Positions 45,001-51,000 of a stretch of 64,000 nt of DNA are shown in pieces. Origin of the DNA: Okamejei kenojei (taxonomy: Eukaryota); the NCBI GenBank assembly GCA_035221665.1, contig CM069137.1, positions 43,896,001-43,960,000 of the forward strand, written 5' to 3'. Position 1 is the first letter of the stretch. Every line of letters starts with the position of its first letter. The position numbers are program-made.

Positions 45001-48000
45001 GTGTTGTAGGCTCATGAAACCCATTAGCAGCAAAACCAAAGCTGCCGTACCCTTGAATATGTATTTACTTCCTTTGAGGAAAACAAAATTGTTAGCCATG
45101 AGAATATTGCAGTCAAAAATGGGATACCACCTGTATCATTTGTATTTCACGGGACCTTTACTGTCTCTACTAGACAAACAAAATATTTTAAAGTATGTGG
45201 TTAGCATATATGTGTACATCTGTCAAAGGGATCCACTGACTACTGAGAAAACAACAATCTTCATTTTGCAAAGATGAAGTGTCTCCAGTTCCTAGTCAGT
45301 GAAGAAGCAACTACAATGTTAAATTCTGGCAGCTGTGCCATTCCTTTGAAGTAGAAAAATATACTGGAGTGAATGCTGGAGAAACTCAGCGGGTCAGGCA
45401 TCATCTCTGAAAGACATGGTCAGGACTTTTGGTAAACCAGCATCTGCTGTTCCTTGTATCTCCATTGCTTTGAAATGAACACTTTGATGTTAATTTTTGA
45501 GGTCCATTGTTCTACCAGAAGAGTTAGGATAGCCATACTTGGCTGTGATTTGAACACATGCCACTGCCGGTGGTGGGGGAGATGGTAGACAAGTTACTGT
45601 GAGGAGGGGAGAGAGGAGTTTGAGAGTGAGGCAGGAGAGACCTGCGGTGCAGGAAGGGGCGTCGCCATCCCGGCCGTGGAGTTGACTGACAGAAGAGGAG
45701 ACCAATTTGCATGACGCTGACTGACAGGAGAAGAGACCAATCTGAGCATGTGCAGTTTTTAAGATTTATAAAACTTAATAACTTTTAAAATATACCATCG
45801 ATCGGAACAAAACTTGTTGCACTTGTAGCACAGGAGAATGGTGAGTACGGTGGTGAAAAATCGCAGCGCTATCGTTTACCGTTTTTGCACAAATAGAAAA
45901 ACCACGCAAACCGGAAGAGCACAAGATCAGAGTTTTAGTTATGTATGGATAGATAGATGTACAGGGTAGGTTTTCTGCAGAGAGTGGTTGGTGTCTGGAA
46001 CACGCTGCAACAAGTTGAAGCAGATAGAATAGTAAGATTAAACGAGAACTTACCAGTTCGAAGTTTGATCGTTATTTTATGAGGAGTTACGATGAGGGAT
46101 TACGTGAAGAACCCGCCTGGCGCTGGCAAACGGCATACTTCAAAGCAGCGGCATGAAAAACACAGAACACAAAAATAGCCGAAGTAACATAGTAAGGCTC
46201 ATAATAGACTTAGAACTACCAGATGATCATTTATTTTATGAGGGTGGGGAGTGGAGGGCACATAATCCTCAACGTAACTCCTCATAAAATAACGATCAAA
46301 CTTCGAACTGGTAAGTTCTCGTTTAATCTTACTATTTTACTTCGGAGTCACGTGAGTGACTACGTGAAGAGTTTTAAAGCTTTCTGTGTTTTTTGTGTCG
46401 TAGAATTTATTCCATACGACAGTACGGCTCATTAACACAATAACGAGCGAATAACACATTTTCCCCAAACATTGCCTCAAGTTATGTGATAAATAATTTT
46501 CACATTATAAAAAATGAAAATAATGCCCTTTCTATTGAAAAGCAAATTTATCACAAATACCAATTGATATATATTTTTTATGGCATGACAAAGCAACAAT
46601 TATAGCGAACCGAACATTGCGTGTCTAAATCTGACACCATGACTGGTTCCTTTATTTTAACAGTAATCTACAGCCTCCTGCGGCCTGTGCCATTCCTGTG
46701 AATGTATTTTCCTCATTAACAGAGTGATTTTCCACCTTTCAGTGTCTAGTTCCTACTGAATGTATCCAATTATTAACCATCTAGAAATACATTCCTCTAT
46801 AACCATCAGTTTTACTGAACCCAATGTGGTTTTTGTGTGTAATAAGCAGTCTCATTGCCACAGACTCTTACCTACTGCAACATTTTCATCAATGTTCACA
46901 CACACACACACACACACACACACTTAAAGCCAGCAGGATGTGCTTATAGGTTTACCTTGGTTTTTGTTTTCAGGTCTTCTTGGCGTGCTTTGTTTGGTAG
47001 ATTCATAAACATATATGATAATGCAATTTGTATCCACATGCCATTATAACGTAACATTTGCAATGTTTGCACTCTTATATTGATACTAAAGTTATCAGAA
47101 TTATTATTTTTCAATGTTTAAAGTGTTTAATCATAGATAGAGTTAAAGTCCATTTCTTAAGGCATTTCAGATTTTTTATCTCCTGCCTTTATATTTTTTA
47201 CAATTTTGGACAGATTATNNNNNNNNNNNNNNNNNNNNNNNNNNNNNNNNNNNNNNNNNNNNNNNNNNNNNNNNNNNNNNNNNNNNNNNNNNNNNNNNNN
47301 NNNNNNNNNNNNNNNNNNNNNNNNNNNNNNNNNNNNNNNNNNNNNNNNNNNNNNNNNNNNATATATCCCTTTCCATATTGGGATATTATGAATGCATCTG
47401 ATAACTTCTTGGTTAATATATTATCCGTTTATAAGACGGTAACACTCTGAGCCCTATAATTGGCTCTATCAATTAGATACTTAGAAAATGCAATCCACAA
47501 GGAATTCACATATATCTAAATGGAAAAAATAACTTTCCTGTATATACAGACCTCCAATTTCTTATAACAAAATATAGTTATTTATACTTATTTCCGCAAA
47601 TTGCAGGTATAACACTTCTTTATACATAATTATTTTATTGATATATCGTAATATTGGTTTACATTCATAGACTTCTTTGACCATCAGCTGTTGAGATGGT
47701 CTAGTCAACCTGTAGATAGTCAAATTCATATTTTCACTTATGAAGGTTTTTGTACAACAATAAATTACTGCAGGGTTTCTCAACCTGGAGATCCCAGTAG
47801 GTGCAGCAGCATCCAAAGAAACAAAGGGAGACAGGCAACGACCTAGGTCGAGGCCCCTTTTTTGACCAATAAATTACTGCCATTATGAATCATTACTAGC
47901 AGTTCAAAATCACACAATATAAATGAACCATAAAGGACCCATATTGGGCCACCAAAATGCCTCTGGCAGTGTCCTGCTACATATTCATCAGACACTGCCC

Positions 48001-51000
48001 TATTAAACAAAATGAGAACACAAAGAATCTTTTCCTCATGTAATTTGGAGAAAAGCATCCACCTTCACTGTTCTTAGATTACCCACAAGAATATTCGAAA
48101 GATCAGTGATTTAATCTGTATGCAATCAGATTAATCGTAAGTAATCCATATTAATGACAATATGTTTTTCTTCCCAAATTTGTTCTCTTCCGATACCATT
48201 GTCTCTTCCTTAGAGATAAACAGGTGGACTAACTTAAACATACCACATCTGTTTACTTAGATAATCCCATAATTGTTGTTTGACTTATCTTGTGACCCAC
48301 AAGAAATATTTAAAATCAGTGATTTAATCTGTATACAACCAGATTAATCGTAAGTATGCAAAATAATGACAATATATTTTCCTCCCAAATTTGAACCATA
48401 GTTAACATATGCCACAGCCGTGGTATTGTTCATCTTGATACGACATGGCCAGTTCCATAATAAAAACAATCGATCTTTTTATCCATAACTCCTTATACTT
48501 CAACAATTAATACGAATGTTTGGAAAATTTCTTAGGACAAACCATTTATGTTTGCCTGTACAATTATTGTTATAAGAATAGATAATATTCTTATCTTTAC
48601 CCAAACATTCACAGAAGCTGTACATCATCTGTAACACTTGCTTCAGTTGTAATTTTATAGTTGAAGCAGCTTATGAATCTTTTTTACATTACTAATAATA
48701 ACGTATCATTTGATATTTTGCATAAGCCTCTTCACAAGGCATACATATTCTATAAGCTTCTGTATTCCTTCTTTTGGAACTTTATTTATATTTTCCCCTA
48801 ACCTAATGGAGGAACAAAGTATGTCAACAACAATAATACATATTTGTATCATGGAACAATTTTCCCCACTCTTATGGTGCTTAAATTACTTCTGAATTCA
48901 GAATAGTAATTTAAAAATATTTTATTAATGCCTGAGCATATGCTTTATGTAATGGGTCAAGTCCTACCTTCCACCAGGTTTGTAATGGCAGGCACTAATT
49001 TGCAGCTGCTCTTTATCTCTTCTAATTTAAATGTAATCGAGATAACCCATACCATATACCTCATTAGTGCAAGTGCTGATCTTTTCTCAGTATATTGTTC
49101 CTTCAGTGTTCAGTTTAAACAACTTGAACTGATTGATTGTTTAGACAAGTTTTAACTTGCACAGCTTGACCCACTTTAATTAATTTCAAGCACCTGTAAT
49201 ATTGATTAACACTTTGTTAATCACAACAGTTTTCCATGTTCTAGATGTTTTCTATTTTCTTACACTGTGAAAGTGTAAATAATGATATTATTGTATGGTT
49301 TATACCATGAATCTTTACACTAAGGTAATTTTATAATATACATGTACGTTCCCCTTCTTTTTAAAATTTACTTTTGAGTGCAAACCTGAAATCAGTTTTC
49401 CCCTTATACAGGTGAACCAATCCTCCTTAGTTATATTAAGTTTTAACCATCATAATACACCTGTAATCCCCCATAATTGGAGATTTCATGACTTATTTTG
49501 TAACCAGATGTTTGCACCTCTTCAACGTACATCAAGCCTTCTTTTCCCCAATTATATAGGTTAAGATAAGGCTATGTTTGGATAATACCACTTCTGCCTT
49601 TATTTTGATCCATCATCAAATTTTTCATTGGATCATAGTTTTTTCACCGTAAGATAAAAGATCTTTGTCTTTGTTTTGATCCATAATCAAAATTTTTATT
49701 GGATCATAGTTTTCCTTCCCAAAGTTTAAAGATCAGTGGTCTGTTCTTTTGTAATTAATATCTTTGATTTATCATAAGCAGGTATTCTATAATAATCAGG
49801 AGTTTAATATATCCTGATTTGTATTAATCTGCAACCCTATGATGCAGATTCGGTAAATTATATATATTTCTTCCTATTAAGCTCCACAACTAATGGCAAT
49901 TTATTTTTATATTGCAAGTATTACATATTTGCACCATTTTTGAAACTTTGAAATTGTATTTCTTATATCTCATATATTTGAGACATGCATATTTATAAAT
50001 GGATTAACCATTGATATTTAAATAAAACATAAAGTTTTATCGTATTCTTGAAGTTGGTGAGATACCATATAATTAATGTAGGTAGCTAGGTTTTTCCATA
50101 GCCTCACCACTTCCTTTAGATATAGCAAAACTTTTGCTATCTCAGGCAACACCTGGCCTCACTTTTATTTTTATTTTATTTGTGGTGTGCATTCATAATT
50201 CACATCACCACTTGCAGGTCTGTCTTTTGCAGCCCTGATCCACTTGGAATTATATTCAAAGAGACTTCCTCCACCCTATCCAGGGTCAGAGTTTTTATTT
50301 TTCAATTTGGCACATAGCCAATATTTTGTATATTCAAGCCCCTCAGGGTCTTTTTTGGGGAACTTTTGGGTTCCCTAGCTTTTCCCATATATCGCAATTT
50401 TATTAACTTTTTTAAAAATACAGTCTTTCTGACTTTTAAAATATCCTGCCAAAATTGTGGAGCATTTAAACCTTTCTACCGTATTTTAAACGGTACCAGT
50501 ATCGGAACCGGCCCGTAATTAATCTCTCGTCCCGATCGCTGGGTATTCCCCTGGGACGTTCTTTTTAAAACTCCGTTATTTTAACAGAGTATATCTGTTT
50601 AATTTAAACTTTTAGTTAGTTTTTAAAACCTTTAAAATCCTGGTTTCCACCAGGCACGGAGTTTTCTAGTCCTAAATTTTTTTTTCCCAACAGCACTTAC
50701 CTGCCGGTTCCGAACCTACCGCTGTCGAGGAGCTGTCTGTGCAGCTCCTGCTTCTGCCGTCAGCGTCGACGTAATGCCGTTTGCCAGCGCCAGGCGGGTT
50801 CTTCACGTAGTCACTCACGTGACTCCGAAGTAAAATAGTGGTGTTTAAGATGCTTTTAGATAGGCACATGGATATGCAAGGAATGGTGGATATGGATTGA
50901 GTGCAGGGTGGAAGGTGTGACACTGTTATGTTCTATATGCACATACCTTCTTTTCCACTTCTTCCTGTCTGCTCACATCTTCAAAATGGACCCCAATTTG

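What the first reader, a model, noticed from the sequence alone, without database searches (positions are those of the whole stretch)
46028..50839. DIRS retrotransposon with perfectly matched cis-acting termini but a coding body decayed almost beyond recognition
Seen: a 36/36 ITR core (46101-46136 vs 50774-50809). The ICR (about 46259-46370) has a left half complementary to the 46028 terminus over about 64 nt without mismatch, and a right half (46331-46370) that is 40/40 complementary to 50800-50839. The 4.2 kb between is very AT-rich with no meaningful ORF. Minus-strand remnants survive in DIRS order: ITTEAS (like TDAS, RNase H start), NNTTAVAYVN..GG (like DNTTAVAYIN..GG), VHLFISK (like DLFASR, methyltransferase-like region), and weaker KDSWY (RT-like, 49302-49316) and VNSLWIAFSKYL (YR N-terminal-like, about 47490-47520). 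Established: the ITR+ICR layout is the DIRS1 hallmark, and the termini are regenerated from the ICR at each replication. Inference: matched termini mean a recent insertion, so the body decayed before insertion. This points to a long-lived non-autonomous DIRS lineage, mobilised in trans, that kept near-full length and drifted to high AT rather than shrinking.
[Added by the scan's program, not by the reader: the finding's places include an assembly gap (unread letters, written N; its length is only estimated) at 47219 to 47360. Whether the letters on both sides are continuous or in frame is not known: test that first.]
Basis: partly seen in the sequence, partly recalled or inferred. Interest (0 to 1): 0.8.

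Follow-up and report, generated by a model that had tools for sequence, protein, structure and literature searches.

The report
Gene-less DIRS-type retrotransposon, recently inserted
A 4.8-kb mobile element carries the full set of matching end and internal sequences typical of DIRS retrotransposons but no recognisable genes, so it probably moved recently with enzymes borrowed from another element; whether its inside is a ruined gene set or unrelated DNA is not settled.

Summary
The repeat geometry is real and matches the finding to the base. There is a 36/36 inverted-repeat core. The internal complementary region (ICR, 46259-46370) pairs 40/40 with one terminus and 64/64 (78/82 overall) with the other. 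This is the DIRS1-like layout, with the sense strand on minus.

The 4.0-kb interior is AT-rich (GC 0.32) and CpG-poor (o/e 0.29), with no ORF over 103 codons. The 369-nt and 446-nt terminal blocks have CpG o/e about 1.3, and the boundaries are sharp.

No test supports the five "remnant" peptides as DIRS homology. Negative results came from:
- Pfam on 46 stop-free pieces;
- HMMER against 1.84 billion proteins;
- three word-indexed searches;
- PDB and the Atlas;
- the published YL/IDD and HSTR motifs;
- two frame-structure statistics that did detect three of four decayed LINE/Tc1 controls.

Only weak sense-strand compositional signals remain.

Verdict: a recently inserted, non-autonomous DIRS1-like element. 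A recent insertion with a body that was already dead is well supported. A body derived from decayed DIRS genes is unproven, and captured unrelated DNA fits equally well. Copy number, the autonomous partner and continuity across the gap could not be checked.

The parts
46028..50839 (-). Whole element, 4,812 nt including an estimated 142-nt gap. The outer bounds are ambiguous by 6 nt because the same 6 nt sit at both ends.
   Evidence: the termini pair with each other and with the ICR. The flanks outside are unrelated to each other.
50774..50839 (-). Left terminus (5' end of the sense strand). It consists of an outer 'divergent ITR' of about 30 nt (50810-50839) and the 36-nt conserved ITR core (50774-50809). 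An imperfect ITR continues inward to 50752.
   Evidence: (I2, I3).
50471..50773 (-). 5' non-coding leader. Together with the left terminus it forms a 369-nt CpG-rich block (CpG o/e 1.32). All three sense frames are closed.
   Evidence: The dense CpG run begins at 50480.
47361..50470 (-). Interior, right of the gap: AT-rich, CpG-poor, with no detectable coding remnant. The three sense frames hold 63, 66 and 72 stop codons per 1,036 codons.
47219..47360 (.). Assembly gap (N). Its length is only estimated and it was not filled.
46471..47218 (-). Interior, left of the gap, with the same composition. The sense frames hold 16, 17 and 20 stop codons per about 249 codons. It contains a perfect (CA)13.5 run at 46897-46923.
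46371..46470 (-). CpG-rich stretch just upstream (in the sense direction) of the ICR. It is part of the 446-nt 3' block (CpG o/e 1.28).
   Evidence: The last dense CpG is at 46448.
46259..46370 (-). Bipartite internal complementary region. The left ICR (46331-46370) pairs 40/40 with the left terminus. The right ICR (46259-46339) pairs with the last 82 nt of the right terminus. The two halves overlap.
46137..46258 (-). Spacer between the ICR and the right ITR. It forms the loop of the right-terminus/right-ICR hairpin.
   Evidence: single-stranded DNA fold -90.9 kcal/mol against -28.3 +/- 3.9 for shuffles, z -16.3.
46028..46136 (-). Right terminus (3' end of the sense strand). It consists of the conserved ITR core (46101-46136), the divergent ITR (46073-46100), and a right extension of about 45-48 nt (46025/46028-46072) that pairs only with the right ICR.
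   Evidence: (I1, I2).
46028..46033 (.). A 6-nt sequence present at both ends (also 50834-50839). Its complement occurs once in the ICR overlap (46331-46336). This is the circular-junction / target-core candidate; no target-site duplication lies beyond it.
   Evidence: The model is from PMC3266345.
48081..48393 (.). Diverged internal direct duplication: 48081-48182 vs 48295-48393, 86% identical.
   Evidence: (D5-D7).
49595..49751 (.). Diverged tandem duplication: 49595-49678 vs 49666-49751, 79% identical.
   Evidence: (D3).

Best explanation
This is one copy of a non-autonomous DIRS1-like (tyrosine-recombinase-type) retrotransposon lying on the minus strand. It keeps about 815 nt of cis-acting sequence:
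- a 369-nt 5' block with the left terminus;
- a 446-nt 3' block with the bipartite ICR, a spacer and the right terminus with its extension.

Between the two blocks lie about 4.0 kb that encode nothing detectable.

Likely mechanism, following the Cappello / Poulter-Goodwin model:
1. A sub-genomic transcript is reverse-transcribed by an enzyme supplied by an autonomous relative.
2. In the single-stranded cDNA, the two ICR halves anneal to the two termini and template their completion and juxtaposition.
3. A recombinase, also supplied in trans, integrates the product at a short sequence identical to the junction, leaving no target-site duplication.

Shown here: the complementarities, the stability of the terminus/ICR hairpin, the absence of detectable genes (within the power of the tests), and the sharp compositional break between the cis blocks and the interior.

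Inferred: recency of insertion, supply of proteins in trans, and the existence of a partner element.

The origin of the interior is left open. Decayed DIRS genes and unrelated or captured DNA are about equally likely on present evidence.
For: - Terminus and ICR geometry. It fits the published fine structure (left terminus, left ICR, right ICR, right terminus, right extension, short junction shared by both ends; PMC3266345 section 10).
- The hairpin has z -16.3.
- A 10-nt motif is shared exactly by both ITRs and the left ICR. The window holds 3 exact occurrences and all 3 are at these places.
- There are no mismatches in the 36 + 40 + 64 paired positions.
- The terminal blocks have CpG o/e of 1.28 and 1.32, above the 99th percentile (1.18) of 611 400-nt windows. 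The interior has 28 CpG in 3,858 nt (o/e 0.29).
- No coding signal: 0 of 46 stop-free pieces hit a retroelement Pfam family. The protein, PDB and Atlas searches were negative. The frame statistics are null.
- Literature: the ICR is essential, and DIRS-1 reverse transcriptase can copy a truncated element's RNA in trans (PMC7192593, passages and section 21).
Against: - Only one copy is visible, so multi-copy status and an autonomous partner with matching termini could not be examined. No eukaryotic genome collection was open.
- The window itself holds no DIRS-type gene. Of the 45 ORFs of 120 aa or more, 20 were scanned and 0 matched a recombinase family. The only YIDD motif lies in a LINE-type reverse transcriptase.
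- The left ICR and the left terminus lie on opposite sides of an assembly gap.
- In PMC7192593 the truncated test element gave cDNA but did not complete a detectable full cycle. Complete trans-mobilisation of a DIRS element is therefore not experimentally established.
Confidence: 0.72

Rival explanations
1. The reader's version, a special case of the best explanation. The interior is the decayed gag/pol/recombinase body of a DIRS element, carried at near-full length by a long-lived non-autonomous lineage that drifted towards high AT.
For: - The total length of 4.8 kb lies inside the published range of 3,974-6,283 bp.
- The sense strand is A-rich and C-poor, with G>C in all four quarters (A 0.32-0.40, C 0.12-0.14), as retroelement sense strands often are. 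That last comparison is my own knowledge.
- Stop trinucleotides are depleted on the sense strand only: 201 against 252.7 +/- 10.1 for shuffles, z -5.3, while the other strand has 191 against 195.6. This is the most extreme of 21 blocks x 2 strands.
Against: - No homology was found in any search.
- The published YL/IDD and HSTR motifs occur 0 times in the six frames.
- The stop depletion is spread evenly over the three frames (63, 66, 72). Local frame heterogeneity gives z 2.1, 0.4 and -0.3, and a frameshift-tolerant path cost gives z -1.4 to +0.4. These values resemble the negative controls, whereas the decayed LINE and one Tc1 control give z -3 to -6.
- Per-trinucleotide ratios (0.86, 0.56, 0.84) are only modestly below the window background (1.00, 0.79-0.85, 0.89-0.91), and single background blocks deviate as much.
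- The CpG boundary is sharp rather than graded.
- The interior holds internal duplications.
- Composition at host equilibrium would need very long neutral drift with no loss of length.
Confidence: 0.3
2. The interior is unrelated DNA, either host sequence or another non-coding repeat. It came to lie between the two cis blocks by read-through or template switching and was then copied as one unit, in the manner of LARD-type derivatives of LTR elements.
For: - Interior GC (0.32) and CpG o/e (0.29) match ordinary AT-rich DNA of this window (median o/e 0.35 over 611 windows). Both change abruptly at about 46450 and about 50480.
- It has no protein homology and no frame structure.
- It contains a microsatellite and diverged duplications typical of non-coding DNA.
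Against: - The sense-strand skew and stop-trinucleotide depletion have the orientation predicted by the termini. Under this reading that would be a coincidence.
- The canonical overall length would also be a coincidence.
- Nothing else in the window resembles the interior, so no source sequence was seen.
Confidence: 0.32
3. This is not one element. Either two terminal fragments of separate DIRS copies happen to flank ordinary DNA, or they were brought together by scaffolding across the 47219-47360 gap.
For: - The gap lies between the ICR and the left terminus, and its flanks share nothing.
- If the family is young and uniform, a 40/40 match between parts of different copies is expected.
Against: - Both outer ends are intact, in the correct relative orientation and order, and at a canonical spacing.
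- Each contig on its own shows a cis block that passes directly into AT-rich non-coding DNA instead of genes. The gene-less state therefore does not depend on the join.
- Composition is alike on both sides of the gap.
Confidence: 0.1
4. An old autonomous DIRS copy whose genes decayed where it sits.
For: The interior has heavy stop load and CpG depletion.
Against: Decay in place would also have hit the termini and the ICR, yet about 264 sites taking part in perfect pairings carry no mismatch. The terminal blocks also keep a CpG o/e of about 1.3.
Confidence: 0.03
5. An ordinary terminal-inverted-repeat DNA transposon, or a chance repeat arrangement.
For: The ends are inverted repeats.
Against: - An ICR that pairs with both unequal termini is not a feature of such transposons.
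- The E-values of 1e-14 to 1e-30 within 64 kb exclude chance.
- There is no target-site duplication beyond the shared 6 nt.
Confidence: 0.02

Closest known systems
DIRS1-like retrotransposons with a short conserved ITR and a right extension of about 48 nt (AcaDIRS1/2 and LgDIRS1/3 rows of Table 3 in PMC3266345; NveDIRS6b and DpuDIRS3 have a similar extension and ICR)
   Same: The sizes of the parts agree. Here the divergent ITR is about 30 nt, the conserved ITR 36, the right extension about 48 and the ICR 40 + 82. The mollusc rows give 30-36 / 31-36 / 48-49 / 39-45 + 86-88. The ends can be written ATT...ATT with the junction complementary to them. Overall length is 4.8 kb against 4,680-5,808 bp. 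Only sizes and trinucleotides were compared, not sequences.
   Different: Those elements encode gag, RT/RNase H/methyltransferase and a tyrosine recombinase; none is detectable here. The identity shared by the two ends is 6 nt here, not 3. The host of this window was not identified. The vertebrate rows of the table have longer ITRs (102-148) and shorter extensions (26-34).
DIRS-1 of Dictyostelium discoideum
   Same: It has ITRs plus an ICR complementary to both tips, placed just before the right repeat. Its ICR is experimentally essential (PMC7192593).
   Different: DIRS-1 is autonomous, with repeats of about 300 nt and an 88-nt ICR (33 + 55). Here the repeats are much shorter and there are no genes.
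[quoted passage not shown]
   Same: It is a gene-less member of the DIRS order that has been active, so it must use proteins of a relative.
   Different: It comes from a green alga. As I recall, its termini are of the split-direct-repeat kind rather than ITR + ICR. No sequence comparison was made.
LARD/TRIM and Dasheng-type non-autonomous LTR elements (recalled; the Dasheng/RIRE2 paper was seen only as a reference-list entry), and mini-Ty1 (380 + 357 nt suffice, as quoted in PMC7192593 section 21)
   Same: Intact cis termini enclose a long non-coding interior. The retained blocks here (369 + 446 nt) are close in size to the mini-Ty1 minimum.
   Different: These are a different order of retroelements, with direct LTRs, a DDE integrase and target-site duplications.

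Membership tests
DIRS1-like retrotransposon (ITR + ICR type) | Inverted terminal repeats with a strictly complementary inner part and a partly complementary outer part | tested here: met
   The core is 36/36. The whole ITR is 74/88, scoring 55 against a shuffle maximum of 20.
DIRS1-like retrotransposon (ITR + ICR type) | [quoted passage not shown] | tested here: met
   One half pairs 40/40. The other pairs 78/82, including 64/64 in a row. The ICR lies 122 nt before the right ITR.
DIRS1-like retrotransposon (ITR + ICR type) | Terminal extension that pairs only with its ICR half | tested here: met
   46025/46028-46072 pairs with the right ICR and has no counterpart in the left terminus.
DIRS1-like retrotransposon (ITR + ICR type) | The ICR halves overlap at a short junction whose complement begins and ends the element, with no target-site duplication | tested here: met
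   6 nt are shared by both ends and complementary to 46331-46336, and they include the common ATT. The flanks beyond differ (definition).
DIRS1-like retrotransposon (ITR + ICR type) | A motif of at least 10 nt conserved in both ITRs and both ICR halves | tested here: inconclusive
   The motif is exact in 3 of 4 places (46101-46110, 46361-46370, 50800-50809). The right ICR reaches only part of it, with one mismatch.
DIRS1-like retrotransposon (ITR + ICR type) | gag-like ORF | tested here: not met
   All sense frames are closed from the left terminus inward. No Pfam hit was found.
DIRS1-like retrotransposon (ITR + ICR type) | pol with reverse transcriptase, RNase H and methyltransferase domains | tested here: not met
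   0 of 25 sense-strand pieces hit RVT, RNase H or any related family. There is no YL/IDD motif. Searches with the 44-, 71- and 103-aa pieces were negative. Power is low for short decayed pieces.
DIRS1-like retrotransposon (ITR + ICR type) | Tyrosine recombinase ORF | tested here: not met
   There is no integrase-family hit and no HSTR motif. The frames next to the ICR are closed.
Non-autonomous retroelement derivative (TOC1- or LARD-like) | Complete cis termini without coding capacity | tested here: met
   See the rows above. Stop counts per sense frame are 63, 66 and 72 in 1,036 codons and 16, 17 and 20 in about 249 codons.
Non-autonomous retroelement derivative (TOC1- or LARD-like) | Several copies sharing the same interior | not testable with these tools
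   There is no further copy in the 64-kb window, and no eukaryotic genome collection was open.
Non-autonomous retroelement derivative (TOC1- or LARD-like) | An autonomous partner with matching termini and ICR | not testable with these tools
   None is present in the window. The rest of the genome was not available.
Ngaro/PAT-like elements (split direct repeats) | A1 - internal - B1 - A2 - B2 direct terminal repeats | tested here: not met
   No direct repeat links the two ends. The terminal repeats are inverted.

The most novel reading that the evidence does not exclude
This copy belongs to an old, still mobile, full-length but gene-less DIRS1-like lineage in an animal genome. On this reading the interior descends from DIRS genes and has drifted to the host's compositional equilibrium, while about 370 + 445 nt of cis sequence stayed under selection. 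That would give a natural map of the minimal cis requirements of DIRS1-like elements and natural evidence for complete trans-complementation in this order.
Probability: 0.25. Interest if true: 0.55.

Novelty: new member of a known kind. Interest (0 to 1): 0.36.

Why it matters
- DIRS1-like elements are usually found through their protein domains. The survey tool of PMC3266345 requires RT, MT and recombinase signals together and states that relics are not considered. Gene-less copies with intact termini are therefore invisible to such surveys.
- A recent insertion of such a copy suggests that DIRS1-like proteins can serve a foreign RNA through the whole cycle. The published experiment could show this only for the reverse-transcription step.
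- The sharp boundary between the CpG-rich ends and the CpG-poor interior marks which sequence is kept: 369 nt at the 5' end and 446 nt at the 3' end.
- In the held library, the phrase searches for a non-autonomous DIRS element turned up only the Chlamydomonas TOC1 statement. Repbase entries, which I could not consult, may already hold such families.

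Tried and rejected
It was replaced by 46 stop-free pieces taken from the 49 ORFs. Three were dropped because they run through the N gap. One was lengthened by three codons to the preceding stop.
2. All three are tandem-repeat proteins scored over 5-9 repeated stretches. None has a retroelement domain, so they were rejected as spurious.
3. Three word-indexed searches against longer proteins found no candidate (44 aa), 44 candidates (103 aa) and 26 candidates (71 aa). None scored E <= 10.
4. The Atlas gave a best score of 0.80 with recognition 1994 for the 44-aa piece, and no usable hit for the 103-aa piece. 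Both are at chance level.
5. PDB phmmer gave 0 hits at E <= 10 for two pieces.
6. Rfam gave 12 matches at E <= 1 in 45000-52000, all far below their gathering scores. No tRNA was found. No nested repeat structure was found in the interior.
7. I hoped that the repeat in the left flank (45646-45961, with three other copies in the window) would span the insertion site and reveal the empty site. It ends before the site.
8. The bacterial promoter/terminator scan is irrelevant to a eukaryotic element and was not used.
9. One positive control, the Tc1 copy at 40900-42000, did not reach significance in either frame statistic (z 1.4-1.5; -1.0 to -1.8). These statistics can therefore miss short remnants.
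10. One negative control reached z 2.7, so the interior's single z of 2.1 counts for nothing.
11. No named relative came back, and I wrote out no comparator.

Full report
**1. What is in the sequence.**

The window is repeat-rich eukaryotic DNA. It holds LINE-type endonuclease and reverse-transcriptase fragments and Tc1/mariner transposase fragments, and it has four N gaps.

I do not take this contig for human. The human genome holds only very old DIRS protein fossils (PMC5753468 passage; PMC9004415 passages). A DIRS-type copy with unmutated ends does not fit that.

No spliced gene model was involved, so no joined-exon step arose.

**2. The termini and the ICR.**

Three inverted pairings tie 46025-46370 to 50752-50839.
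- The ITR core, 46101-46136 vs 50774-50809, is 36/36. It sits inside an imperfect ITR of 74/88, 46073-46157 vs 50837-50752.
- 46331-46370 pairs 40/40 with 50800-50839.
- 46259-46339 pairs with 46025-46106 over 82 columns at 95%, including 64/64 from 46028 to 46091.

The blastn E-values inside the 64-kb window are 2.5e-14 to 1.3e-30.

The ICR sits beside the terminus at 46025-46136, so the sense strand is minus. Read on that strand, the ICR is the reverse complement of the junction formed when the 3' end is joined to the 5' end.

The two ICR halves overlap. Six nucleotides are common to both ends and occur once, as the complement, in the overlap. This fits the published model of a short circular junction and an identical target sequence with no target-site duplication (PMC3266345, passages and section 10; PMC7192593 passages).

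The outer 45-48 nt at 46025/46028-46072 pair only with the ICR, which makes them a 'right extension'.

A 10-nt motif occurs exactly three times in the window: in both ITRs and in the left ICR.

As single-stranded DNA, the 3' block folds at -90.9 kcal/mol, against -28.3 +/- 3.9 for shuffles.

The sizes of the parts resemble the mollusc rows of Table 3 of PMC3266345, and the cnidarian and Daphnia rows for the extension and ICR. They resemble the vertebrate rows less. This compares sizes only.

**3. The gap.**

Nothing in the window can prove or disprove continuity across 47219-47360.
- The flanks do not overlap. The best local score is 9, against a shuffle mean of 10.2.
- Composition is alike on both sides.

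The main reading does not hang on the join. On the left contig the ICR is followed, after about 100 nt, by AT-rich DNA with all sense frames closed. On the right contig the left terminus and a 300-nt leader are followed by 3.1 kb of the same kind of DNA.

**4. The interior.**

The interior runs 46471-47218 and 47361-50470.
- GC is 0.32.
- It has 28 CpG in 3,858 nt (o/e 0.29), with TpG/CpA in excess.
- The two terminal blocks have o/e 1.28 (446 nt) and 1.32 (369 nt). That is above the 99th percentile (1.18) of 611 sliding windows, whose median is 0.35.
- The dense CpG runs stop at 46448 and start at 50480.
- The sense frames carry 63, 66 and 72 stop codons in 1,036 codons right of the gap, and 16, 17 and 20 in about 249 codons left of it.
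- No gene can be delimited, so breaks cannot be counted gene by gene.
- The interior contains two diverged duplications (86% and 79%) and a (CA)13.5 run.

**5. Is the interior a decayed DIRS body?**

Every direct test was negative.
- **Pfam:** 0 of 25 sense-strand pieces and 0 of 21 opposite-strand pieces hit a retroelement family. The four weak hits (E 0.046-0.13) are to unrelated families.
the piece carrying it shares fewer than three 5-residue words with any longer protein in the indexed collection.
- **HMMER:** the full search of 1.84 billion representatives returned only three tandem-repeat proteins.
- **Other open stretches:** the 103-aa and 71-aa stretches found nothing.
- **PDB and Atlas:** they gave nothing usable.
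- **Published motifs:** YL/IDD and HSTR are absent from all six frames.

Two statistics that need no reference protein are also at null:
- local non-uniformity of stop frames;
- the cost of a frameshift-tolerant open path.

For the interior they give z 2.1, 0.4 and -0.3, and z -1.4 to +0.4. They detect two decayed LINE fragments and one of two Tc1 fragments at |z| of 2.7-6.

These tests have limited power on short, heavily mutated pieces. They show absence of evidence, not proof of absence.

**6. What speaks for a retroelement history of the interior.**

- Stop trinucleotides are depleted on the sense strand only: 201 against 252.7 +/- 10.1, while the other strand has 191 against 195.6. This is the most extreme of 42 block-strand values.
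- The depletion is equal in all three frames and modest against the window background.
- The sense strand is A-rich and C-poor throughout.
- Both signals have the orientation predicted by the termini.

I treat them as weak and unexplained.

**7. Age.**

About 264 sites take part in a perfect pairing:
- left terminus, 66 sites;
- right terminus, 100 sites;
- ICR, 98 sites.

None shows a mismatch.

If substitutions were Poisson, zero events would put the 95% bound on per-site divergence since the pairings were last made at about 1.1%. This is my arithmetic, not a tool result.

So little time cannot have taken CpG o/e from about 1.3 to 0.29. The interior was therefore already CpG-poor and closed when this copy arose. 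That excludes decay in place and implies dependence on proteins from elsewhere.

The mismatches in the inner 18 columns of the right-ICR pairing and in the 'divergent ITR' are expected features of the family. They were not counted.

**8. Comparison with what is known.**

By its cis architecture the element passes the DIRS1-like tests. By coding content it fails them. It is best filed as a non-autonomous derivative.

Such derivatives are named in the DIRS order: TOC1 is called a non-autonomous DIRS retrotransposon in PMC9940879 (passage). They are common among LTR elements (my recollection).

Searches of the held library brought up no description of a gene-less ITR+ICR element in an animal. I opened passages of seven of the listed papers and one section each of two of them. 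Repbase was not available. Absence from print is not claimed beyond these searches.

**9. Verdict.**

The DIRS-type identity and the 'recent insertion of an already dead body' are well supported. The 'decayed coding body' and the 'long-lived lineage' are not shown.

I rate it a new member of a known kind, of moderate interest. The interest would rise if a genome-wide survey showed a family of such copies and a partner.

Noticed in passing
45646-45961; also 55109-54829 (minus), 39211-39476, 37805-37995: An unclassified repeat family of about 300 nt with four copies in the window at 72-78% identity. It is unusually CpG-rich (o/e 0.99-1.44). The copy in the left flank ends about 65 nt before the insertion site.
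   Followed up: partly
14657-17792 (+), 19068-19748 (-), 59684-60068 (-): LINE-type fragments. They carry endonuclease (Exo_endo_phos) and reverse-transcriptase (RVT_1) pieces split over several ORFs, plus a YIDD-bearing reverse-transcriptase piece near 60 kb.
   Followed up: partly
41055-41762 (+), 61086-62200 (+), near 12705 (+): Tc1/mariner transposase fragments with HTH_Tnp_Tc3_2 and DDE_3 domains. The 12.7-kb and 61.7-kb pieces share a very similar peptide context.
   Followed up: partly
51400-53700: A GC-rich (0.50-0.64), strongly strand-skewed low-complexity tract of purine and pyrimidine runs, with CpG-island-like windows at 51.8-52.7 kb. It lies directly right of the element. Its long ORFs have no Pfam match.
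   Followed up: no
47361-50470, minus strand: A strand-specific deficit of the three stop trinucleotides (z -5.3), spread evenly over all frames. It is the most extreme value in the window and has no explanation.
   Followed up: partly
46230-46235 and 46406-46411 (sense = minus strand): Two AATAAA hexamers in the 3' block. One lies in the spacer between the ICR and the right ITR, the other just upstream of the ICR. Whether either serves as a polyadenylation signal is unknown.
   Followed up: no
32877-33235, 36735-36935, 47219-47360, 63198-63341: Four N runs of 359, 201, 142 and 144 nt. This suggests a scaffolded assembly with estimated gap sizes.
   Followed up: no
50502-50518 vs 50697-50713: A 17-nt, 88% complementary inverted repeat inside the 5' leader, next to a short perfect hairpin near 50730. 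It may be a structured leader (read).
   Followed up: no
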